Both the position numbers and the translations under genes were made by a program. A model generated the notes under the pieces. It saw only the letters and a list, made by a program, of their open reading frames with translations. It had not been told where the DNA came from and ran no database searches. Positions 2,722-50,900 of a stretch of 64,000 bases of DNA are shown in pieces. Every line of letters begins with the position of its first letter. Positions within the stretch are counted from its first letter, which is position 1. This stretch comes from a virus, in the UHGV virus genome UHGV-1370141. One strand, 5' to 3'.

Positions 2722-4923
2722 GTGGACGCTAGAACAGTTAACGACTCAAGCTGGGTCAAAAACCTATTTAATGGCGCAGTCGATGGCCGAGATGAACGTT
2801 TCCTGGCCTTGCGCCGCTATTCCGGTGGTATGATGTCGTTTGAAGACACCACAGTTGGTGGTAGTAAAGCGATTAACACACCGCCCCAGTTTACACTTTT
2901 TGCAGACCCTTCCTCAACAGGCGCGTTTGCACAACCCGACGCGACTAAGAGCGGTACCGAGTCCCTTTATAATTCCTCAGCCGCAGGGTCTTATCGCTTA
3001 GGGACGTATTACTACGAAAGTATCAGCCAGAACTCATTTTACGTTCATTGCCGTTTCGGTAAACCGAAGTATCTGGGTATGGCTTCGTTCTTTGCGAACA
3101 TGTACGACTCTAACCTGGCGTATCTTGCACGTACAGGTGACTATCCAGGAATTATTCGAACAGCGGCATCGTATATCGGTGCGGCTGCTATTTGGGCGAC
3201 GGTGGGTACTGTGGCATTCGCGGTGATTCTGATTACACCGAGGATTCTTTCGGCAGCGCTGAATAAAGAAACGTCAAGATACTATTACGTTAAGCCCACA
3301 ATGCATCTGTACTTACGTGCAGTGCAAAACATCCTGAACACCCAGCTAATTTATCGTCGTTTAGTACCAACGGGTGTGTTAGGGACTTTTGCGTTGGGTT
3401 ACGATACCGAAAGTAAAGAAAATAGTTACCATAAAGATCGTAAAGAGTGGTATGAATCTTTGCCCGAAGTCTGGAAAGCGAACGGTGAGTTTGACATTTA
3501 CCGAATGATTAACCGTTACCAGACCTTGGCGAACTACCAGGCTAAAACTATCGACGCGATTCGTGTAGAATCCGGTGACGATGAAGAATTGTTTGCCAGT
3601 CGCTTACGTGCGTTTTACTATAATGCTACTTACAGCGATAACGTACGTCTAAAAGCAGAACAGTTCGAAGTCTCACTATACAACTTGGAAAAAGTTGCCA
3701 GAAGTGAAAAGGGGGGTTACGCTTCTCCGATACAGGATATTGACAGCCAGGAAGACGAACTCATCGGACAGATGAGTAATAGCCTGGTGGTGGGTGGTAC
3801 CGCTAATGAACTGCAAGAGCAAGCTGCACAAATCCAGTCAGAGCAGGAAAAAACCCGTCAGGCTATGGAGAAACGTGCGGCAGCTGCTAAGCAGTTGAAC
3901 TCTACGTTGGATGAAAAGAACCCGGAGGATCTTACTGAGGGCGATATTGTCGAAGTTCAAGATTGGATGAACAAAGGTAAAGATGAATCCAAAGTAGGAA
4001 CGTTCTTTAAAGAGTTTACCGATATGGTTGCGGATGTTGGCGATAACGTCCTGTCAGAGATTAAGAACGGTTCACAATGGGTTACTTGGCGTATTGACGG
4101 TAAAGACACCGTTTCGCGTTCGTTCTCTAACTCCACGAAAGAACCTGAGATTTCCGGGATGGTAAACTCCGCAACAGCAAAAGCGCGTTCGTTGGAGGTT
4201 AACCTGTCGGGTGGACAAACCGGTTTTAGTGCGGTCGATGCTTTAGTTTCCGGTATTAAGTCAGCGATGCGAGGCGTTGCAGACACCCTACATTTGACAG
4301 GGATAATGTCGTTGTACAACTCCTCGGTGATAGACTTCCCAGAAGTCTGGGATAGTTCTGACGCATCAGGAGACGACATTACTTTAACCATTCCTTTACG
4401 TTGTTGGTCGGGTAACGACCTGGATATTTTCCAGGATTTGTTAGTTCCGCTTTCGTTTTGGATTGCAGCAGTGTGTCCTCTGGCTACAGGTAAACAATCT
4501 TTTACTCACCCGTTCTATTTAGAGTGTTATTCACAAGGACGTTTTTCTTTCCGTAACGCGATGGTGACGTCGATGTCGTTACAGTTCGGTGTGGGTGGTT
4601 TAGGTTGGCGGCCAGGTGATTCCGTCCCACTGTCTTGCGACATCTCTGTTACTATTCGTGATTTGACTCGCGTTATGTACATGCCCATTGTTACTGACAC
4701 AGGTGTGTGGGATGATGATAACAAATTCAGTGAATTTATGGCGTGTTTAGGTGGTGCTACGTTGTACGAACGTACTAACGGTATTGCGCGTGCCAAGATT
4801 AATGCGAGCATCTGGGCACAAAACTGGGCATCTGCATGGTCACAGGGTAGTTTTATTAACTCGGCACTGGATGTTATCCCAGCACGCCAGATCGCGAACA
4901 TCTTCCTGCCGCAAGCACGTTAA
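2722..4923 (+). CDS. Hypothetical virion protein (733 aa) with an internal hydrophobic segment
   Basis: Long ORF, probable GTG start preceded by AGAGG; hydrophobic stretch AASYIGAAAIWATVGTVAFAVILI; same strand and tight spacing with the SLT gene. Confidence 0.5.
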   Translation: MDARTVNDSSWVKNLFNGAVDGRDERFLALRRYSGGMMSFEDTTVGGSKAINTPPQFTLFADPSSTGAFAQPDATKSGTESLYNSSAAGSYRLGTYYYESISQNSFYVHCRFGKPKYLGMASFFANMYDSNLAYLARTGDYPGIIRTAASYIGAAAIWATVGTVAFAVILITPRILSAALNKETSRYYYVKPTMHLYLRAVQNILNTQLIYRRLVPTGVLGTFALGYDTESKENSYHKDRKEWYESLPEVWKANGEFDIYRMINRYQTLANYQAKTIDAIRVESGDDEELFASRLRAFYYNATYSDNVRLKAEQFEVSLYNLEKVARSEKGGYASPIQDIDSQEDELIGQMSNSLVVGGTANELQEQAAQIQSEQEKTRQAMEKRAAAAKQLNSTLDEKNPEDLTEGDIVEVQDWMNKGKDESKVGTFFKEFTDMVADVGDNVLSEIKNGSQWVTWRIDGKDTVSRSFSNSTKEPEISGMVNSATAKARSLEVNLSGGQTGFSAVDALVSGIKSAMRGVADTLHLTGIMSLYNSSVIDFPEVWDSSDASGDDITLTIPLRCWSGNDLDIFQDLLVPLSFWIAAVCPLATGKQSFTHPFYLECYSQGRFSFRNAMVTSMSLQFGVGGLGWRPGDSVPLSCDISVTIRDLTRVMYMPIVTDTGVWDDDNKFSEFMACLGGATLYERTNGIARAKINASIWAQNWASAWSQGSFINSALDVIPARQIANIFLPQAR

Positions 4924-10278: not shown

Positions 10279-10295
10279 GGTAATTCTCCTTTAGG

Positions 10296-10336
10296 GTAAA
10301 AAATAAAAATACCCTACTCCCAGACAGGAGTAGGGT
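10296..10336 (-). terminator. Rho-independent terminator (CCCTACTCC-cagaca-GGAGTAGGG plus T-tract on - strand)
   Basis: Inverted repeat followed, on the - strand, by a U-run (plus-strand AAAAATAAAAAT); immediately after the stop of 10342..11001. Confidence 0.5.
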
Positions 10337-10341
10337 AGGTG

Positions 10342-19414: not shown

Positions 19415-20299
19415 CTAAAAACCAGATATAAAGGTGGGCGCAATCCATCGCCACTCCTGCCAGCGTGGTCCTGTCATTGGCCCACACCAGACCCGTTTCC
19501 AATGTGCCCTGCGTATGTGCGCTGCGCGATGAGGCGTTAAACAGATTCTCCTGCCTTCCCTGCGTTGTTTTTCTAAGTCTTCGCGTTGTACTGGACTTAC
19601 GTCAACAACGACAGGTTCTCTCCGTGGGAGGATTTCTGTATCAGGTACGTAACGTGTCGTTCTACCACGGTATTCCCGTCTCTCGCGTTCCGATTTCTTC
19701 ACCCGCGAGGAAAGATATAAACCGATATGTACCTCATCCAGAAGTTCCTCGTCCTTTGACTCGTTAGCAAAGTAAGGCTCTAAACTAACAAAGTCATCTG
19801 CCTTTCTGTTGAACCGATAAATCTTGGTTGTCCAACAGTGCCGCTGATTTATCTCCACCCATCGTAAAACGAACAATACTTCTTCACCTTCGAATTTACG
19901 ACGACCGATAAAGAGCGTAGCAGGAAGTTCGTTAATCTTGACAGTCACGGAAAAGGTGAATGAAGGGATGGCTTCAATCCACGCGTACGGAATATCCGTT
20001 AAACGTTCTGTGTCTGCAAGTAATCCCATCAGCTCTTTATCAGAGATAATTTCAATACCTGCGTATTGCCAACCCAAACCTAACGACTGACGAATAGAAT
20101 ACGGCACCTGTTTGGTGGTGCCGAACTCACGGTACGTTGGGTCGTTAACGGGCAGAAAGGTTACGGGAAGTTGTCTCTTGTGTTCCCTGACAAACGTTAG
20201 AAAACGATCTTCTTTCAGACCAAACAAGTCTTTGTGTGCAGTCTCTATAGCTTCACTAATACGTCGAAGCGTGTCTCCATAAATTCTGCGTCTTAACAT
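19415..20299 (-). CDS. Paralogue A of a two-gene family with conserved basic C-terminal motif (AAHIRRAHWKRVW.GP)
   Basis: Start moved to internal Met (MLRRRIYGD) with AGGAGA SD, removing the 113-nt overlap with the upstream paralogue; shares GW.Y.G, IPa.T and the C-terminal motif with 20310..21242. Confidence 0.5.
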   Translation of the reverse strand: MLRRRIYGDTLRRISEAIETAHKDLFGLKEDRFLTFVREHKRQLPVTFLPVNDPTYREFGTTKQVPYSIRQSLGLGWQYAGIEIISDKELMGLLADTERLTDIPYAWIEAIPSFTFSVTVKINELPATLFIGRRKFEGEEVLFVLRWVEINQRHCWTTKIYRFNRKADDFVSLEPYFANESKDEELLDEVHIGLYLSSRVKKSERERREYRGRTTRYVPDTEILPRREPVVVDVSPVQREDLEKQRREGRRICLTPHRAAHIRRAHWKRVWCGPMTGPRWQEWRWIAPTFISGF

Positions 20300-20309
20300 T
20301 ATAATTCTC

Positions 20310-21242
20310 CTAGTCTTGCGTGTGGGGTACGTAGCCTCGGACAAATGTCGGTGGAATCCAGCAAAGTTTTCTTTTTCTTTCACCGTTTCTTGGGCCAACC
20401 CAGTATCTACGCCAGTGTGCACGACGTATATGTGCAGCTTTGGCGTGTTTGATACCCTGCATGGCTTTCAAGTCGGTGTTAAATCCTTTTAGATATTTTA
20501 CTTGTCCTGGTGTGATATCAACCTTAACATCACGTTCTCGCGGTTTAACGTCGTAACTAATACTACCGTTCTTTTTGATTTCCCTGAACTTAATATCATT
20601 AAAAGACTCCCTGTAATTAGGCGGGATTAGCGTGCACAGAAATATCATCGAAGTGGCGGCTTTGGCCAGAGATAACCATAACATCTTCTCTTCTTCGGTC
20701 TGTACGCCAGTTGTATAATCAATTTCAACAAGCCCGTTTCCTACACTACGAAGCTCTAACGAACAAGTGGCAATTGTGGTAACTCCTTCTGTTAACCCGT
20801 AATCAGTATTTGTAGCGATTATAATAAACCTTTTCTTCCCATTTTTTCGATAGCCGAGAAAGAAAGTCTCATCCTCTTTACCTACGTCGATTGCCACAGT
20901 CCATGCGGGTATAAAGTCCAACCATTCTTCAGGGAATTTACTGGGCATCTCAGTCTCGAAAACAAGTTCTCTAAGTGCTTGGTTGGATATTAAGGAAACC
21001 CCGCCATATAGCCACCCGATTGCCAACGTTTGTGCGTGAAGGGAACGTGGATCTTTGAGACCTAACTCAGTGTCGTAGGGTATAAAGGAATTGGTTAAAT
21101 GGTTACGATTCTTTTTTATCCATTTCGAGACAGGATTTTCTTTTGTTTGGTTTTCTTCCATGACATTTTCTAGATGCTGACTCCCCATTTGTCTAAGACA
21201 GTCTTTAATACCTTTTACTTTTTTACTTTTGTACAAATACAT
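20310..21242 (-). CDS. Paralogue B of the same family (C-terminal AAHIRRAHWRRYWVGP)
   Basis: 310-aa ORF in tandem with paralogue A; same C-terminal motif. Confidence 0.5.
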   Translation of the reverse strand: MYLYKSKKVKGIKDCLRQMGSQHLENVMEENQTKENPVSKWIKKNRNHLTNSFIPYDTELGLKDPRSLHAQTLAIGWLYGGVSLISNQALRELVFETEMPSKFPEEWLDFIPAWTVAIDVGKEDETFFLGYRKNGKKRFIIIATNTDYGLTEGVTTIATCSLELRSVGNGLVEIDYTTGVQTEEEKMLWLSLAKAATSMIFLCTLIPPNYRESFNDIKFREIKKNGSISYDVKPRERDVKVDITPGQVKYLKGFNTDLKAMQGIKHAKAAHIRRAHWRRYWVGPRNGERKRKLCWIPPTFVRGYVPHTQD

Positions 21243-26048: not shown

Positions 26049-26085
26049 GTTAAGCTCCTTTCTCTATACATTAGAAGGGGGTTAA

Positions 26086-26130
26086 ACGTTAAAAAGAAAA
26101 TACCTCCTGTACCCCGAAGGATACAGGAGG
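26086..26130 (-). terminator. Terminator-like hairpin (CCTCCTGTA...TACAGGAGG) with U-run on - strand
   Basis: 9 bp inverted repeat with plus-strand A-run on 5' side, immediately after the stop of 26136..26591. Confidence 0.4.
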
Positions 26131-26135
26131 CGTTG

Positions 26136-29717: not shown

Positions 29718-29730
29718 TTTAATACTCCTA

Positions 29731-29770
29731 AGATGGAAAAAAGAATTAACCCTACTCCCGGAGGAGTAGG
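29731..29770 (-). terminator. Rho-independent terminator (CCCTACTCC-cgga-GGAGTAGGG; U-run on - strand)
   Basis: Same stem sequence as at 29134 and 10311; plus-strand A-run on 5' side. Confidence 0.5.
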
Positions 29771-29779
29771 GGACTTAAA

Positions 29780-31245: not shown

Positions 31246-31264
31246 ACCTTTGCTCCTTTAGGGG

Positions 31265-31302
31265 AATAAATAAAAGTACCCCTAATCCGATTGGATTAGG
31301 GG
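31265..31302 (-). terminator. Rho-independent terminator (CCCCTAATCC-gatt-GGATTAGGGG; U-run on - strand)
   Basis: Perfect 10 bp stem with plus-strand A-run on 5' side, right after the stop of 31309..31818. Confidence 0.5.
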
Positions 31303-31308
31303 CAAGTA

Positions 31309-37312: not shown

Positions 37313-37324
37313 GGAGCGTGGTGT

Positions 37325-37372
37325 AAAAAGAAAAAAAATAAAAGAGAAGGGAGAGAACCCGAAGGTTCTCTC
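37325..37372 (-). terminator. Rho-independent terminator (GAGAGAACC-cgaa-GGTTCTCTC; long U-run on - strand)
   Basis: Perfect 9 bp stem with a roughly 20 nt plus-strand A-run on 5' side, right after the stop of 37379..37987. Confidence 0.55.
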
Positions 37373-37378
37373 GTGGTA

Positions 37379-46197: not shown

Positions 46198-46315
46198 TTT
46201 CCCCTTTTTCTTACGTTGGTATTATATATTGTGACCTGACGTTGGTAAGCTTCTTATCAACACTTTTCTTAAACCTCATCGTTTAGTTAAGCAGGCCACT
46301 TTTTTCGCGCACTCA

Positions 46316-46345
46316 CTCCTCCCTTCGGGGAGGAGCTATCTTATG
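46316..46345 (+). terminator. Terminator-like hairpin (CTCCTCCC-ttcg-GGGAGGAG)
   Basis: Perfect 8 bp GC stem with tetraloop followed by a moderately U-rich tail; downstream of 45232..46197. Confidence 0.4.
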
Positions 46346-46396
46346 CTTTGGTTGTAACACGATACAGTCCTTCCTTTCTTTAACTGGAGAGTAGCT

Positions 46397-46606
46397 ATGG
46401 CTATTAAAGAATTCTCTTCTGCTGAACACATTCCTGAAGAGTTCAAGAAAATTGGTAACGTAAGCGCTTTCGGTGATACCGTAGACGACGTTACTGCTAA
46501 GCTGGCTGTCGAAGCTGAAAAGATCGGCGGTGAAGCGTTTAAAGTTATCGGTATTTCCGGTAACAACAAACTGCACGGTAACGCGATTGTCTACAAAAAA
46601 GACTAA
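46397..46606 (+). CDS. DUF1471 (YdgH/BhsA/McbA)-like small protein without signal peptide
   Basis: FGDTVDDVTAKLAVEAEKIGGEAFKVIGISGNNKLHGNAIVYKK resembles, from memory, the E. coli BhsA/YcfR core (...GAKSFRITSVTGPNTLHGTAVIYK); GGAGAG SD; flanked by hairpins on both sides. Confidence 0.5.
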   Translation: MAIKEFSSAEHIPEEFKKIGNVSAFGDTVDDVTAKLAVEAEKIGGEAFKVIGISGNNKLHGNAIVYKKD

Positions 46607-46608
46607 GT

Positions 46609-46666
46609 GAAAAAAAAACGTGCTACTCCTACCCTCTAAGAGGGTAGGAGGTTACTTATTTTTTTC
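46609..46666. terminator. Bidirectional rho-independent terminator (CTCCTACCCT-ctaag-AGGGTAGGAG; A-run 5', T-run 3')
   Basis: Perfect 10 bp stem between convergent genes ending at 46606 (+) and 46656 (-). Confidence 0.6.
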
Positions 46667-47918
46667 TTGCACGGAAACGATGCATTTCCAAATAGACTTT
46701 TTCCCAGGGACCGAAAGGCCCTACGATTGCCTGTGCATCGTTAATTTTCTTCTGGTTATACCAACGGGCCTCACGGAACACGTAGTTTTGACTGTCGAAT
46801 TCCGTGGTGTTAAATACCCATTCCCCTTCTTCCCACGTCGGCCAGTAACCAACGGTTTTACCGAAGCGGTTTAACAGATAACCCAGTTGTTTTTCCCCAT
46901 CAGGGTCATTAGGATCTTTAAGGTATAAACGTCCCCAGATAGCGTTGTGAGAAACCCCCACAACTTCTTCTTCCAGATACGGATTATCCACCGTAAAGAT
47001 AAACGACGACTCGTGGGTTAAAAGCGCCTTTAACGTTTCTGGGTTGCGGATACGCTGTACGCTGGTCGGGGATGACAGATCGCCAACGCCGATGCTATCC
47101 CAGTCGTAATAACGTCGGGTTTCTAGCACAGTACGCGCAACGTCAAAGTTCGGTAACGAGACCATAATGGCTTTGTCGGAGAAGTACCCAGTAACCGGTA
47201 ACCAGTGTATCAGACCCCCGATAACAAACCCCACGGTTTTACCCGTAATAGATTCCGGTAAAGAAATCATTAACGTGGAATAATAGTCACGGGTGGTGTC
47301 GAGTTTGTTTAAGGTCAAGTTAGCAATGGGGTACGTTTTAACATTCCCCAACTTACTAAAGACCATGCACCCGATATCCGGTGTCCCTGCACGACGTACT
47401 ATCTTACCCGCACCCGGTAAACGTACACCAACAGTATCCGACTGATGTGGTACCCATTGACCGTTGATGTTGTACAACACCCCGTTACGGTATTTGTCTT
47501 TCCATTTATCTTCGCAAACAATCACAACGTCGTCAGCATCGTCTATACTGAAATTTTGACTGTAGTGATAACCGGGAGGACACAGATAAGTTTCTACTGG
47601 AACATCAGCATTAATCGATTGGTAGTGTGCCCAATCAAACTCTAACGTCGGTAAACCGTCTTTCAACGCAGAGATAACCACACCGGCTTTTTCATTCAGC
47701 CAGTCTTGTAACGTATCGGTACGGTTTTGTAAGTCAGCGAGGTGATATTGGCTAATTAACGTATAGTCTTTACCAAGCGCACTCAGACCGACTTCGAAAA
47801 TATGGTAATCAGAACACAAGGTTTCTAAGGGTTGCGTGACGTCGATGGCTCCCCAGGTACGGGTCTCTCGAGAGAAGCCAAAAGCGCTGTCAGGCCGTAC
47901 TTGATAAGCAGTAGTCAC
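46656..47918 (-). CDS. Hypothetical protein (about 420 aa); start uncertain
   Basis: Listed ORF (46656..48134) would overlap the 5' end of the divergent fibre gene by about 150 nt; an in-frame GTG preceded by GAGGA gives a start at 47918. Confidence 0.4.
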   Translation of the reverse strand: MTTAYQVRPDSAFGFSRETRTWGAIDVTQPLETLCSDYHIFEVGLSALGKDYTLISQYHLADLQNRTDTLQDWLNEKAGVVISALKDGLPTLEFDWAHYQSINADVPVETYLCPPGYHYSQNFSIDDADDVVIVCEDKWKDKYRNGVLYNINGQWVPHQSDTVGVRLPGAGKIVRRAGTPDIGCMVFSKLGNVKTYPIANLTLNKLDTTRDYYSTLMISLPESITGKTVGFVIGGLIHWLPVTGYFSDKAIMVSLPNFDVARTVLETRRYYDWDSIGVGDLSSPTSVQRIRNPETLKALLTHESSFIFTVDNPYLEEEVVGVSHNAIWGRLYLKDPNDPDGEKQLGYLLNRFGKTVGYWPTWEEGEWVFNTTEFDSQNYVFREARWYNQKKINDAQAIVGPFGPWEKVYLEMHRFRARKK

Positions 47919-47985
47919 AGCTCTTTTCCTCAATAGATTCAAGTCATAGTATGAACTCGACGCCCACGGACTATAGGAGTAGATA

Positions 47986-50900
47986 ATGGCTGTCGTCCTA
48001 GACCCACACTTCAAAGAACCGGGGAATAAAATAACCGGTGAAGCGGTCGCCGTCATTGGTACGAAGTACCGAATGTTGGTACCTGCCCACGCCCCTTTTT
48101 TCACCACATCCCTGGTGGTCAAGAGCGGCGGCAAAATACTGACCTTAGGCGACGATTACGTTATTACACACCCGTACGAGACCGGTATGTTGCGCACAGC
48201 CTATCTCGTGCACGGGATGATTTGGATTGTTAACGACAAATACAAATCGAATTTCACGGTAGATTACCACGCCGTAGGTTGCGGTGAGGCAACCCAAGAA
48301 CAGATTACCGCAGAACGCGAACTCAATAAAGATAAATACCCGTCTGCGTGTCAATGGGATACCGTTATCGGCGACGTTTACTTTCCACCGGTCGACATTC
48401 AGTTCGACTGGGAAAACTGGAAAGGTGAACTGGAATTAATGCAGACCATTGCAGGCTTAGGTGATTCGTTAGGTAACGTGGTGAATCGGGTAGACCCGAT
48501 TGCACGTAACACGTTAGATATCGAGCATCGCGCTAATGGTACGGTTAGCACGTCTGAACAGTACGCAACGTACGACAACAAAGGTGGGTATACTTACAAT
48601 ACCGCTAAACGTCGTTTCTCCGTTACGTACAAAACCACCACGTTAAATGAATATTCCCTGTCGATGAAATACCGTATTCCGGCTATTTTTCCGAATATGG
48701 GGAGTATTAATCCGAACGAACAAATCGATTGGATGTTGTGCTATGCGAATGGTGGCGCAAGTATCCTTCGTCTCCAATTAAAACAACGTAAAATCAGCCT
48801 ACGACTGACGGTCGCGTTAGGCAGTGGTTCGACCGATTATGATTATACGTTAATCAACGGTTTGACCGATGACGAATTAAAAGGCGAATTAACGTTTAGC
48901 GTTGTCCGTCAACCGGGTAACGGTGTATACGTTATCGAGGTGACGACTAACAAACAGTCCATGGACTATACGTTTAACGTCGACACACCGCCAGACGAAT
49001 TCTCAGCAGGTTACAGCAAAACGGATGTTGCGAAGTGGCTGAAATACAAAACCAACGTTAACTTAAACTGGTGGGCGGCTGAAAACGATTACGCTCAATT
49101 CCTTGCGTTACCTGGTGCGCCAGAAGCAGACGTAAGTAACGACGTTTATCAGTTAATCGTTAAGTACCATCAGTTAGTAGAGCAACTCTATCGCAACGCA
49201 CCTGCACACGAACACGTTACACGTAAGGACAACCCGCACAGCGACACGTGGGGACCGATTCGTGCGTTAGAATTAAACGGCATTGCGTCCGACGCAGCGT
49301 TAACCTACGGGAAAACCAAGCGACAGTTAACGGACTACGTTAACGCTAAATACCCAACACAGGCAACGCTAACCACCCAGAGAAAACTGCTTCGAGAATC
49401 GGCGAGCAAGAACGTTAACGGCACGATTACAGCGCTCCCTGGCTTTACGTCATTTACTACTGAAGTCGACCCAGTGTCGATGTCGAAATACGTTAGTCGG
49501 CAATTTAGCGAATATTACGTTTCGAACGGAATTGGATACCACGGAGCACTTCGCTACGCTGGAACTAAAAACGGGTTCTCATGTTATTTTAACGGTGTTC
49601 CCGCTGATTTACAAGACATCGACTTTATTGTAACGGGTACAAGAGTTGCAGGCGATAATTCAGCGATCGGCGTGGCTCAGATGCGATTCTACGAGAATCC
49701 GGGTACCGAGTCCGGTAAGTATGTTGAGCTGGAAGGTTCGCTCTCCGGAGATCGCCTTTCCATCCAAGTATCGCTTGGCGGATATGGTGTCGGTACAGAC
49801 CCACAAGTCCGTTATATCTCCAAAGCACCTGATCCGGTGGTGCCTGCTGGCGATTTCACATTACGTTTCCAGATGAAACGAACCGGTAATCTTTTTGACG
49901 TTATCGTTACGGTGAACGGGAAAACCTACAGTGCGCGTGTCAATTTCGTCAATATGGATGCCGAGTTAGAAGCGCTGGAAAACCGTTATCACTTCAAGAG
50001 CTTTATTAATAACGTTGCAGATAGGGTCAGTATCCAATCTGCTCACAACAGAAACTACGTTACCATCAAAAAGGCTCCTGACGTTGTTGACGAAAGACGT
50101 TTAGGCGCTCAATTCGTTGTTGATCCGAAGTCCATTAAGTTTATCGGTCAAGGTTCTACCGATGTTCATGCGGGTAACAACCCTGTTACGTTACAGGCAG
50201 GCGATAACCAGCTTGTGCTATACCCCGATGACCGTGGACTGTTGTGGCGTGGTAAGAAACTCTTAGACCCCACTACGGTAGCGCCGTATTTGCCGGGTAA
50301 TACCGCAGGCGGTACAGGTCTGTTCTACGGTGCATCTACAGCTACAGTGGAACTTACTGGTAGCGGGATTAAAGCATCGCCGTTTGTCGCAACGTTTATC
50401 CTTCCGGTTGCCGAAGACGTCACGACGTTAGCCTGCTGGCAGTTAACGGATGAATTCGGTACGGCTGAAAACCTTGCAGCTACACCCGCGTTAATTGAAA
50501 AACTGGACGCAGAGTTTACCGGTAAGTTAGTTGCTGCCAAGTCGTACATCAACGACATGCAGCTTACCAGTTCGATTACTATCGACAAAATTACCTTTGG
50601 TTTAGGTAACGTTGCGAATACCCCGGACCTCGATTTGCCGATTTCTGTTGCACAACAGACTGAGTTAGACAAATACTCACCGAAGGTTCACCAACACCCG
50701 TCTTCTGTGTTCGGTGTTGAAAACGCAGACACCACGAAACGGGGTCTGATTAAATTCGGTCTGGAAGTGGATGATACCACTTTAGCACTCGATGGTAGTG
50801 TGGTGATGGCGCAGACTTCCCAGATTGAAAATTTGGAGAATACCGTCGGCGGGGTTGACTCGGGTGCGCGCGTTGACATTATTCGCTTTGGTAAGTCCGG

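What the first reader, a model, noticed from the sequence alone, without database searches (positions are those of the whole stretch)
46397..46606. Leaderless DUF1471 (BhsA/YcfR/McbA-type) domain protein as a stand-alone transcription unit
The 69-aa protein matches the core of the enterobacterial DUF1471 small periplasmic stress/biofilm proteins (my recollection of BhsA: ...GAKSFRITSVTGPNTLHGTAVIYK; here GGEAFKVIGISGNNKLHGNAIVYKK) but lacks their signal peptide. It sits between two strong hairpin terminators with its own SD. A cytoplasmic phage copy of a host periplasmic stress-protein domain could act as a mimic or decoy.
Basis: partly seen in the sequence, partly recalled or inferred. Interest (0 to 1): 0.45.

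Follow-up and report, generated by a model that had tools for sequence, protein, structure and literature searches.

The report
Leaderless DUF1471 gene in jumbo phage
A giant phage of enterobacteria carries a copy of its hosts' small periplasmic stress-protein domain (DUF1471/BhsA type) without the export signal, on its own late transcription unit; it is the counterpart of Salmonella phage SPN3US gp172, so it is a known gene family whose function is still unknown.

Summary
Window 46397-46606 (+) encodes a 69-aa protein that passes the Pfam DUF1471 threshold (PF07338, 40.3 bits against a cutoff of 27). Its AlphaFold model matches the solved DUF1471 structures. There is no signal peptide and no in-frame upstream start. 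The gene has a GGAG ribosome-binding site and lies between two strong hairpins.

The window comes from an uncultured SPN3US-like jumbo phage. The gene is the syntenic orthologue of SPN3US gp172 (phrog_8068), which RefSeq already calls "DUF1471 domain-containing protein". All 12 orthologues whose upstream frame I checked are leaderless. They are under purifying selection (dN/dS 0.07-0.21). Each has an invariant TATGC 50-57 nt upstream of the start codon, matching the phiKZ late-promoter core.

gp172 was reported as the smallest SPN3US virion protein. Later data from the same laboratory do not reproduce this: it is absent from doubly purified virions and from tail preparations, is highest in a crude preparation, and is annotated "unusually high abundance in cell".

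Best reading: a host-derived, moron-like cassette that makes an abundant, soluble, non-structural late protein. The decoy idea is untested. Rivals are a tail accessory or assembly chaperone, or an envelope effector that acts at lysis. This is a new member of a known kind, of modest interest.

The parts
46316..46335 (+). GC-rich hairpin (CTCCTCCC-TTCG-GGGAGGAG) downstream of the baseplate-assembly gene. Likely terminator that insulates the DUF1471 unit from upstream transcription.
   Evidence: Terminator-like hit. Folds at -16.3 kcal/mol, z -4.2, with 0 of 200 shuffles as stable. An equivalent hairpin is present in most orthologous loci, usually followed by a T-run. The T-tract is weak in this window.
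46342..46346 (+). TATGC motif. Inferred phiKZ-type late promoter core T(-3)ATG(+1), with an inferred transcription start at G46345 and a 51-nt 5' UTR.
   Evidence: Invariant in position, 50-57 nt before the ATG, in all 12 orthologous loci although the flanking sequence varies. The phiKZ late-promoter consensus TATG is required for nvRNAP transcription (PMC4666361; PMC7598289). A back-to-back CATA(g/a)TATG is invariant in 11 of 11 phages in the neighbouring divergent intergenic region. No transcription-start data exist, and TATGC alone is not enriched in the window's intergenic DNA.
46386..46389 (+). Shine-Dalgarno GGAG, 7 nt upstream of the ATG.
   Evidence: Read directly from the sequence. 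The inferred 5' UTR is no more structured than shuffled sequence (z +0.41).
46397..46606 (+). CDS for a 69-aa (7.4 kDa, pI 5.6, no Cys) leaderless DUF1471 (YdgH/BhsA/McbA-like) domain protein. Orthologue of SPN3US gp172.
   Evidence: Pfam 40.3 bits against a cutoff of 27. phrog_8068 at 1e-31. AF2 pLDDT 86 with beta-beta-alpha-beta-beta topology. Foldseek matches YdgH, STM1478, SrfN, STM0082, YahO and RcsF. dN/dS 0.07-0.21. Synteny in 27 fetched loci.
46610..46665 (.). Bidirectional terminator shared with the convergent gp171-like gene (stop codon at 46656-46658, minus strand). It consists of an A9 run (46610-46618), a hairpin (46626-46650) and a T7 run (46659-46665).
   Evidence: Folds at -21.6 kcal/mol on the + strand (z -4.45) and -20.2 kcal/mol on the - strand (z -4.9). 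The same A-run/hairpin/T-run layout is present wherever the next gene is convergent.

Best explanation
What it is: the orthologue of Salmonella phage SPN3US gp172, in an uncultured SPN3US-like (phiKZ-related) jumbo phage.

Origin: an ancestor of this phage clade captured a single-domain DUF1471 gene of the BhsA/YbiJ type from an enterobacterial host, and the copy has no signal-peptide-coding part.

Gene layout: the gene now sits as an autonomous promoter-gene-terminator ('moron-like') cassette at the junction between the baseplate-assembly gene and the convergent gp171-like tail gene.

Shown here:
- family membership and fold;
- a leaderless state conserved in all 12 orthologues whose upstream frame was checked, from five named genera plus this window;
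- purifying selection;
- flanking hairpins and a ribosome-binding site;
- a gene phylogeny that disagrees with that of the flanking genes (cassette exchange).

Shown by others for the orthologue: the protein is made, it is unusually abundant in infected cells, and it does not stay with doubly purified virions or tails.

Inferred:
- Transcription starts at a conserved TATG late promoter used by the phage's own non-virion RNA polymerase. This would give a monocistronic mRNA of about 320 nt.
- The product accumulates as a folded, soluble 7.4-kDa domain in the cytoplasm late in infection.
- It works there as a non-structural accessory factor, most plausibly as a binding module that competes for or sequesters a partner of the host's DUF1471 proteins.

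The partner is unknown.
For: Identity.

Leaderless state: no upstream in-frame start that could add a signal peptide in any of 12 orthologues, and no hydrophobic N-terminal region. Host-type homologues align from query residue about 11-18 onward, with a 16-20-residue offset that equals their signal peptides.

Clade restriction and host origin: in 50,697 phage records, both a phage-type and a host-type DUF1471 query find only SPN3US-like jumbo phages of Erwinia, Salmonella, Escherichia, Cronobacter and Proteus. The 15 IMG/VR loci are all on 107-248-kb contigs. DUF1471 is an Enterobacteriaceae family (PMC4092069).

Single acquisition: strict synteny and a monophyletic phage group in a neighbour-joining tree.

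Real, constrained gene: dN/dS 0.07-0.21.

Autonomous unit: hairpins, conserved TATGC, and TATG use supported by the conserved divergent palindrome and the phiKZ literature.

Cassette behaviour: SPAsTU against SNUABM29 has flanking genes 82% and 89% identical but DUF1471 only 40%. SPAsTU against Asesino has flanks 68% and 79% but DUF1471 90%. Wellingtonvirus has extra small genes inserted on both sides at the same junction.

Non-structural and abundant (SPN3US gp172 spectral counts):
- 6 in CsCl-step-only wild-type virions;
- 0 in step-plus-buoyant-density tailed virions, where gp170, gp171 and gp173 give 150, 36 and 17;
- 0 in the three doubly purified (CsCl step plus buoyant-density) prohead-plus-tail preparations; in two of them gp170, gp171 and gp173 give 262/232, 39/39 and 27/26;
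- 13, the highest count, in a crude differential-centrifugation preparation;
- authors' note 'Unusually high abundance in cell' (PMC7411985 Table S2);
- not listed in the deep triplicate 2023 virion data, which do list 2-3-PSM contaminants (PMC10052503).
Against: gp172 was reported as a virion protein with 81% sequence coverage. Its mass-normalised spectral count (0.86) was close to that of the 12-copy portal (0.93), and the authors label it 'Tail' (PMC5694885; PMC7411985).

A 7-kDa protein can run off SDS gels. The authors themselves raise this, so its absence from later data sets is not conclusive.

The gene lies inside the baseplate/tail-fibre module in every genome.

All protein-level data are for an orthologue only 43% identical to the window protein, and it belongs to the other allele type.

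The promoter assignment rests on a 4-5-nt motif with no mapped transcription start.

No partner or activity is known for any DUF1471 protein, so the binding or competitor mode is conjecture.

The infected-cell proteome paper (Weintraub 2019, PMC6384053) could not be read.
Confidence: 0.45

Rival explanations
1. Tail/baseplate accessory protein or assembly chaperone. The small protein would bind its baseplate or fibre neighbours (gp168-171 and gp173 homologues) in the cytoplasm. It would either stay loosely attached to the tail or be released after assembly, in the way small, abundant fibre and baseplate chaperones behave in other myoviruses.
For: The position between the baseplate-assembly gene (phrog_3216) and the essential tail gene gp171 homologue is invariant in all 27 fetched loci (gp171 is tail-associated and essential, PMC5105663). 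The promoter motif is of the late type. The protein was detected in CsCl-step virions, was not flagged as a head protein, and is labelled 'Tail' by the authors. High cellular abundance and sub-stoichiometric carry-over would also fit a chaperone.
Against: It is absent from purified tail-containing preparations that hold abundant gp170, gp171 and gp173, and from doubly purified tailed virions. It gives 2 PSM in a 'heads' fraction. Its phylogeny is uncoupled from the flanking tail genes; a dedicated partner or chaperone would be expected to co-evolve with its client. The other phiKZ-like phages have the gp171-like gene (150 records in all) without a DUF1471 gene, which is found in only 60 records. 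The convergent junction is also an insertion hot spot for unrelated small genes.
Confidence: 0.25
2. Envelope effector delivered without Sec. The folded mature-type domain would accumulate in the cytoplasm and reach the periplasm and outer membrane only when the inner membrane is breached at lysis, as canonical leaderless endolysins do, or it would act from outside after lysis. There it would compete with host DUF1471 proteins to weaken the outer membrane, blunt envelope stress responses or alter the surfaces of neighbouring cells.
For: It is co-linear with the mature form of the host proteins and keeps the family-conserved positions G20, G44, G55, N57, G61, A63 and Y66. It appears to be late and abundant. 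Host DUF1471 proteins act in the envelope: YdgH needs periplasmic localisation and affects detergent and beta-lactam susceptibility (PMC11705850), and SrfN binds sulfated polysaccharides (PMC4092069).
Against: There is no direct evidence. The gene is not next to any recognised lysis gene. The conserved residues are mostly glycines and core positions, so they may reflect the fold rather than a shared ligand. The window protein is acidic (pI 5.6), unlike the positively charged ligand-binding face reported for SrfN.
Confidence: 0.15
3. Functionless passenger: a captured host gene fragment that is expressed but contributes nothing to phage fitness.
For: No phenotype is known. The SPN3US amber-mutant screens described in the papers read here did not report it as essential (one search lists the essential genes, and gp172 is not among them).
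Against: It is retained at one locus across at least five genera and 60 records plus 15 IMG/VR loci. dN/dS is 0.07-0.21 with saturated dS. Type-A alleles are more conserved than the flanking genes across genera, for example 83% against 62-63% for Asesino and Huxley. The promoter motif, ribosome-binding site and terminators are all conserved.
Confidence: 0.05

Closest known systems
Salmonella phage SPN3US gp172 (SPN3US_0172 / YP_009153466.1, 'DUF1471 domain-containing protein'; PHROG phrog_8068) and its orthologues in Seoulvirus, Erskinevirus, Machinavirus, Wellingtonvirus and Derbicusvirus
   Same: Same locus between the baseplate-assembly gene and the convergent gp171-like gene. Same length (67-78 aa), leaderless, a PF07338 hit, the upstream TATGC motif and the downstream bidirectional terminator.
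   Different: Only 43% identical to gp172 itself. The window carries the 'type A' allele (71-78% identical to SPAsTU, Asesino, Huxley and ChrisDB), whereas SPN3US and SNUABM29 carry a divergent 'type B' allele. The window phage has no cultured relative above about 77% nucleotide identity. Its upstream hairpin abuts the TATG and lacks the T-run/TTTAC spacer seen in most orthologues.
Enterobacterial single-domain DUF1471 proteins (BhsA/YcfR, YbiJ, YahO, McbA/YbiM, YhcN, SrfN)
   Same: Same Pfam family, and the best NCBIfam models are BhsA and YbiJ. Sequence hits to the solved YahO structures 2MA4 and 2NOC. Same beta-beta-alpha-beta-beta fold as YdgH, STM1478, SrfN and YahO, with query-normalised TM-score 0.72-0.78. 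Conserved ...IG.VS...G..F.V....GNN..HG.A..YK pattern.
   Different: No Sec signal peptide, whereas nearly all host homologues retrieved have one. Below every NCBIfam equivalog cutoff, so it is not BhsA proper. Encoded by a lytic jumbo phage and transcribed from a phage-type motif. Probably cytoplasmic rather than periplasmic.
Phage 'morons': autonomous promoter-gene-terminator cassettes inserted between genes of a phage late region (concept from lambdoid phages; recalled from general knowledge, not tested against a definition here)
   Same: Host-derived accessory gene. It has its own putative promoter and is bracketed by terminators. It is inserted at a junction of structural transcription units that also accepts other small genes, and it has been exchanged between genomes independently of its flanks.
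   Different: Classical morons are expressed from the prophage and benefit the lysogen. This phage group is lytic and the cassette appears to use the phage's own late promoter type. Its GC content (42.4%) is close to that of the genome (45.5%), so it is not a recent insertion.
RcsF (outer-membrane lipoprotein sensor of the Rcs envelope-stress phosphorelay)
   Same: Same fold: Foldseek query-normalised TM-score 0.84 to 2Y1B and 0.83 to 2L8Y. This matches the published observation that DUF1471 structures most resemble RcsF (PMC4092069).
   Different: About 11% sequence identity. No cysteines at all, whereas RcsF depends on disulfides. No lipobox or signal sequence. The similarity is at the fold level only.

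Membership tests
Pfam PF07338 DUF1471 (YdgH/BhsA/McbA-like domain) | Scores above the Pfam gathering threshold over essentially the whole domain model | tested here: met
   40.3 bits against a cutoff of 27, E 3.4e-10, covering profile positions 2-55 of 55. All 14 phage-type homologues hit it, best E 7e-19.
Pfam PF07338 DUF1471 (YdgH/BhsA/McbA-like domain) | Mixed alpha+beta fold of the solved DUF1471 domains (short beta1, beta2, helix, beta3, beta4; RcsF-like) | tested here: met
   AF2 model with pLDDT 86 and elements E4-6, E16-26, H29-43, E47-54, E59-68. Foldseek top hits are 4EVU (YdgH), 2M2J (STM1478), 2JNA, 2MA8 (SrfN), 2NOC (YahO) and 2Y1B (RcsF), with query-normalised TM-score 0.72-0.84. 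This is a prediction, not a solved structure.
Pfam PF07338 DUF1471 (YdgH/BhsA/McbA-like domain) | N-terminal Sec signal sequence and periplasmic or envelope location (true of most members; PMC4092069, PMC11705850) | tested here: not met
   No hydrophobic N-terminal region (maximum KD 0.40 against 2.0-3.1 in host homologues) and no upstream in-frame start. This is a typical rather than a strictly defining feature, so domain membership stands, but the protein is not a periplasmic family member.
Pfam PF07338 DUF1471 (YdgH/BhsA/McbA-like domain) | Taxonomic restriction to Enterobacteriaceae/Enterobacterales | tested here: met
   All phages that carry it infect Erwinia, Salmonella, Escherichia, Cronobacter or Proteus. 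phiKZ-like phages of Pseudomonas, Vibrio, Ralstonia and others have the neighbouring gp171-like gene but no DUF1471 hit.
BhsA (NCBIfam NF047859 equivalog, 'multiple stress resistance protein BhsA') | Score at or above the curated equivalog cutoff (90 bits) | tested here: not met
   47.4 bits. It is the best of five DUF1471 subfamily models, but all are below cutoff. GenBank labels such as 'putative multiple stress resistance protein BhsA' on the orthologues are over-specific.
SPN3US gp172 orthologue group (phrog_8068) | Full-length profile match plus conserved genomic position | tested here: met
   phrog_8068 at E 1.1e-31 over residues 1-69 against profile positions 1-70 of 70. The order baseplate gene, DUF1471 gene, convergent gp171-like gene, gp170-like gene holds in all 27 fetched loci, with one extra + strand gene before the gp171-like gene in Wellingtonvirus.
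Phage virion (tail) structural proteins | Reproducible co-purification with highly purified virions or tails | tested here: inconclusive
   Literature only, and for the 43%-identical orthologue. It was detected in CsCl-step virions (6 spectra, 81% coverage). It was absent from step-plus-buoyant-density virions, from the three doubly purified prohead-plus-tail preparations and from the 2023 deep data sets, and it was highest in a crude preparation. Loss of a 7-kDa protein from gels is not excluded.
phiKZ-type late (nvRNAP) transcription units | T(-3)ATG(+1) motif at the transcription start | tested here: inconclusive
   TATGC is invariant at a conserved distance in 12 of 12 orthologous loci. 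TATG use in this clade is supported by the invariant CATA(g/a)TATG in the neighbouring divergent region. No 5'-end mapping is available, and the 5-mer is not enriched in the window's intergenic DNA.
Known anti-phage defence or candidate defence proteins (PADLOC-DB) | Match to any PADLOC model | tested here: not met
   No hit at E up to 1.

The most novel reading that the evidence does not exclude
The phage stockpiles a signal-less, ready-folded copy of an envelope stress-protein domain in the cytoplasm. It releases this copy into the periplasm only when the inner membrane is breached at lysis, or into the medium afterwards. There it would act as a dominant-negative competitor of the host's own DUF1471 proteins, to loosen the outer membrane or silence envelope-stress signalling in the dying cell or its neighbours. 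This would be a Sec-independent, timing-gated way for a phage to use a periplasmic host domain. It would also give the first molecular handle on what DUF1471 proteins bind.
Probability: 0.12. Interest if true: 0.65.

Novelty: new member of a known kind. Interest (0 to 1): 0.35.

Why it matters
DUF1471 proteins such as BhsA, McbA, YhcN, SrfN and YdgH are repeatedly linked to stress tolerance, biofilm formation, virulence and antibiotic susceptibility in Enterobacterales. Their biochemical function is still unknown.

A whole clade of jumbo phages has kept a leaderless copy under purifying selection. In the SPN3US system it is expressed at unusually high levels, and amber-mutant genetics and proteomics are already established there. 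That makes it a tractable entry point: whatever the phage protein binds is a candidate partner for the host family.

For phage biology, the case shows that one 'virion protein' call for a very small, very abundant protein is probably a purification artefact. It also shows that the GenBank label 'BhsA' on these phage genes over-states what is known.

In itself the finding is an orthologue of an already annotated gene, so the immediate novelty is modest.

Tried and rejected
1. The word-indexed homologue search gave only 4 close hits. The exhaustive HMMER search was needed to see the host relatives.

2. I first favoured a virion-borne tail protein, because gp172 is in the 2017 virion list with a normalised count close to the portal's. 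I downgraded this after reading the 2020 and 2023 supplementary tables.

3. I tested whether TATGC is a general intergenic signal in the window. It is not: 5 of 47 occurrences are intergenic, against about 3 expected. The promoter inference therefore rests on positional conservation across genomes.

4. The conserved upstream motifs GCCACTTTTTTCGC and TATWWTGTGACRA do not recur elsewhere in the window, so they are not general promoter elements. RNAalifold found no consensus structure for that region. Rfam found nothing above chance.

5. I tried to define the ancestral empty site in phage Goslar. The gene convergent on its gp171-like gene is not detectably homologous to the window's baseplate protein, so I make no insertion-site claim.

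6. The infected-cell proteome paper (Weintraub 2019, PMC6384053) is not held. The pSal-SNUABM-04 paper has no proteomics. No paper links SPN3US or jumbo phages with DUF1471 or BhsA, and no baseplate structure for this clade was found.

7. PADLOC gave no hit.

8. The antisense ORFs (87 and 77 aa) were dismissed. The + frame has the Pfam hit, purifying selection and MS-detected orthologues.

Full report
**The observation**

The ORF at window 46397-46606 (+) exists and encodes 69 aa.
- It matches Pfam PF07338 (YdgH/BhsA/McbA-like, DUF1471) at 40.3 bits, above the gathering cutoff of 27, over almost the whole domain model.
- The nearest NCBIfam subfamily models are BhsA (47.4 bits) and YbiJ (36.1 bits). 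Both are far below their equivalog cutoffs, so this is a DUF1471 domain protein and not BhsA proper.
- A profile of the protein and its closest relatives hits the solved YahO structures 2MA4 and 2NOC by sequence.
- An AlphaFold2 model (pLDDT 86) has the beta-beta-alpha-beta-beta topology. It matches YdgH, STM1478, SrfN, STM0082, YahO and RcsF with query-normalised TM-score 0.72-0.84. This agrees with the published description of the fold (PMC4092069).

**No export signal**

- Only 13 in-frame codons lie between the preceding stop and the ATG, and none is a start codon.
- The N-terminus is acidic and hydrophilic. The maximum 10-residue Kyte-Doolittle mean is 0.40. Host homologues retrieved from 1.84 billion representative proteins score 2.0-3.1 at residues 3-10 and have the usual MK...AxA signal peptides.
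- Host proteins align to the phage protein from its residue 11-18 onward, with a 16-20-residue offset. The phage protein therefore corresponds to the mature, post-cleavage form.
- No dedicated signal-peptide predictor was available.

**Transcription-unit anatomy**

- A GGAG sits 7 nt before the ATG.
- Upstream, the hairpin at 46316-46335 folds at -16.3 kcal/mol (z -4.2).
- Downstream, the hairpin at 46626-46650 folds at -21.6 kcal/mol (z -4.5). It is flanked by an A9 run and a T7 run and is shared with the convergent gene, whose stop codon is at 46656-46658.
- Six nucleotides after the upstream hairpin lies TATGC (46342-46346).
- In an alignment of the 12 orthologous intergenic regions, TATGC is the only invariant block in the last 60 nt. 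It always lies 50-57 nt before the ATG.
- In phiKZ, the late promoters used by the non-virion RNA polymerase are defined by T(-3)ATG(+1), and every position is required in vitro (PMC4666361; PMC7598289).
- The same rule probably holds in this clade. The 64-69-nt divergent intergenic region between the gp171-like and gp170-like genes contains an invariant back-to-back CATA(g/a)TATG in 11 of 11 phages.
- I therefore infer a late, monocistronic mRNA of about 320 nt starting at G46345. This is inference only. TATGC is not enriched in the window's intergenic DNA and no 5' ends have been mapped.

**Where the window comes from, and how widespread the gene is**

- The window is an SPN3US-like, phiKZ-related jumbo phage with no cultured relative above about 77% nucleotide identity.
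- It is essentially identical to IMG/VR contigs UViG_3300045988_095954 and UViG_3300014543_000002.
- tblastn finds the gene once per genome in 60 of 50,697 phage records. All are jumbo phages of Erwinia, Salmonella, Escherichia, Cronobacter or Proteus, from Seoulvirus, Erskinevirus, Machinavirus, Wellingtonvirus and Derbicusvirus.
- A host-type DUF1471 query finds the same clade and nothing else, apart from two mis-filed Salmonella contigs.
- IMG/VR adds 15 loci, all on contigs of 107-248 kb.
- In every fetched locus the order is baseplate-assembly gene (phrog_3216), DUF1471 gene, convergent gp171-like gene (phrog_3337), then the giant gp170-like gene. In Wellingtonvirus one extra + strand gene lies between the DUF1471 gene and the gp171-like gene.
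- The gp171-like gene occurs in 150 records across phiKZ-like phages of many hosts. The DUF1471 gene is therefore an addition specific to the enterobacterial subclade, in keeping with the host family's restriction to Enterobacteriaceae.
- The phage sequences form one group in a neighbour-joining tree.
- All 12 orthologues checked are leaderless and under purifying selection, with dN/dS 0.07-0.21.
- RefSeq already annotates SPN3US gp172 as "DUF1471 domain-containing protein". Several GenBank records call the orthologue BhsA.

**Cassette behaviour**

The gene's phylogeny disagrees with that of its flanking genes.

| Pair | Baseplate gene identity | gp171-like identity | DUF1471 identity |
|---|---|---|---|
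| SPAsTU vs SNUABM29 (both Seoulvirus) | 82% | 89% | 40% |
| SPAsTU vs Asesino (Erskinevirus) | 68% | 79% | 90% |
| Asesino vs Huxley | 63% | 62% | 83% |

- There are at least two allele types. Type A is found in the window, SPAsTU, Asesino, Huxley and ChrisDB. Type B is found in SPN3US and SNUABM29. The unit has been exchanged independently of the tail genes around it.
- In Wellingtonvirus, extra small genes are inserted on both sides at the same junction.
- GC content (42.4%) is close to that of the window (45.5%), so the capture is old.
- With its own promoter motif and flanking terminators, this looks like a moron-type accessory cassette parked at a convergent junction. It does not look like an integral tail gene.

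**Protein-level evidence for the orthologue**

- Ali et al. 2017 listed gp172 as the smallest SPN3US virion protein: 7 kDa, 4 peptides, 6 spectra, 81% coverage, mass-normalised count 0.86 against 0.93 for the 12-copy portal. It was not flagged as a head protein. It was missing from 47(am1) particles. On that basis I first favoured a tail-borne protein.
- The same laboratory's later tables point the other way. Table S2 of Reilly et al. 2020 gives these gp172 spectral counts:

| Preparation | gp172 | gp170 / gp171 / gp173 |
|---|---|---|
| Wild type, CsCl step only | 6 | 135 / 35 / 8 |
| am59-supD, CsCl step only | 3 | 78 / 4 / 0 |
| Tailed virions, step plus buoyant-density gradients | 0 | 150 / 36 / 17 |
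| Heads fraction (am59-supF) | 2 | 5 / 0 / 0 |
| Crude differential-centrifugation preparation | 13 | 26 / 6 / 0 |
| Three doubly purified prohead-plus-tail preparations | 0 | 46 / 23 / 3 in am59-sup0-a; 262, 232 / 39, 39 / 27, 26 in am59-sup0-b and am66-sup0 |

[quoted passage not shown] - The 2023 deep triplicate virion data list gp171, gp173 and even 2-3-PSM "non-virion" proteins, but not gp172.
- This pattern fits an abundant soluble intracellular protein that contaminates less pure preparations. The caveat, raised by the authors themselves, is that a 7-kDa protein may be lost from gels.

**Interpretation**

My best reading, at about 0.45 confidence, is a host-derived, leaderless DUF1471 domain. 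It would be expressed late and at high level from an autonomous cassette, would accumulate in the cytoplasm and would act as a non-structural accessory factor. The most plausible mode is a binding module that competes for a partner of the host family.

"Mimic or decoy" remains untested.

Rivals:
- A tail accessory protein or assembly chaperone (0.25). This is supported by position and by the 2017 detection. It is weakened by the purification behaviour and the discordant phylogeny.
- An envelope effector that reaches the periplasm only at lysis or acts after lysis (0.15). This is the most novel reading that the evidence does not exclude.
- A functionless passenger (0.05). This is contradicted by conservation and selection.

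**Novelty and interest**

This is a new orthologue, in an undescribed phage, of a gene family already annotated in public records and already seen at the protein level. No paper in the searchable library connects gp172 with DUF1471 or notes its leaderless state. Interest is modest (0.35). The value lies in offering a genetically tractable handle on an enigmatic enterobacterial protein family, and in correcting a probable false "virion protein" call and the over-specific "BhsA" labels.

Noticed in passing
window 47945-47953 (in the 64-nt divergent intergenic region 47922-47985): The palindrome CATAgTATG consists of two back-to-back TATG motifs, one per strand. It is invariant, as gtCATA(g/a)TATGa, in 11 of 11 related phages between the gp171-like and gp170-like genes. 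It is probably a pair of divergent phiKZ-type late promoters giving 5' UTRs of about 25-35 nt.
   Followed up: partly
window 46225-46235 (TATATTGTGAC) and 46295-46308 (GCCACTTTTTTCGC); the latter is preceded by a CGCTTG-like block: These sequence blocks lie between the baseplate gene's stop and the upstream hairpin. They are conserved at the orthologous position in Seoulvirus, Erskinevirus, Machinavirus and Wellingtonvirus but occur nowhere else in the window. There was no Rfam hit, no RNAalifold consensus and no covariation. The role is unknown; it could be a 3'-UTR element, an extra terminator ending in U6, or a protein-binding site.
   Followed up: partly
window 46656-48134 (-): The mechanical 492-aa ORF is an over-extension that overlaps the start of the 1441-aa gene. 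Homology to all orthologues starts at the ATG at 47921, giving a 421-aa gp171-like protein (phrog_3337). In SPN3US this is an essential tail-associated protein.
   Followed up: yes
L002 (SPAsTU), L012 (SNUABM29), L001 (SPN3US), L003 (Asesino), L009 (Huxley): DUF1471 CDS against flanking genes: The DUF1471 alleles are phylogenetically discordant with the flanking genes. Within the genus Seoulvirus, identity is 40% although the flanks are 82-89% identical. Between genera, identity is 83-90% although the flanks are 62-79% identical. This implies exchange of the cassette among jumbo phages.
   Followed up: yes
L005 (Kwan) 2115-2273 and 2787-3347; L011 (SNUABM11) 2123-2281 and 2805-3371: Wellingtonvirus phages have an extra 52-aa ORF upstream and a 186-188-aa ORF downstream of the DUF1471 gene at the same junction. 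The site seems to tolerate or attract insertions.
   Followed up: no
window 19415-20422 (-) and 20310-21242 (-): Two adjacent genes encode paralogous proteins of about 310-335 aa that share a C-terminal motif (AAHIRRAHW.R.W.GP...W.I.PTF..G). The upstream ORF call overlaps its neighbour and is probably over-extended.
   Followed up: no
window 10279-10341, 26049-26135, 29718-29779, 31246-31308, 37313-37378 (- strand genes): Many same-strand gene junctions carry a GC-rich hairpin plus a T-run, followed directly by an AGGAG ribosome-binding site. Terminator-like punctuation between co-oriented genes is therefore common in this genome and is not special to the DUF1471 unit.
   Followed up: no
whole window: No cultured phage matches above about 77% nucleotide identity, and then only over the most conserved genes. 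The closest sequences are uncultivated IMG/VR contigs of 107-225 kb (the nearest 100% identical in the DUF1471 protein, two others about 92-93%), so the window represents an undescribed species, perhaps a new genus, of the SPN3US-like group. No tRNA genes are present in the 64 kb.
   Followed up: partly
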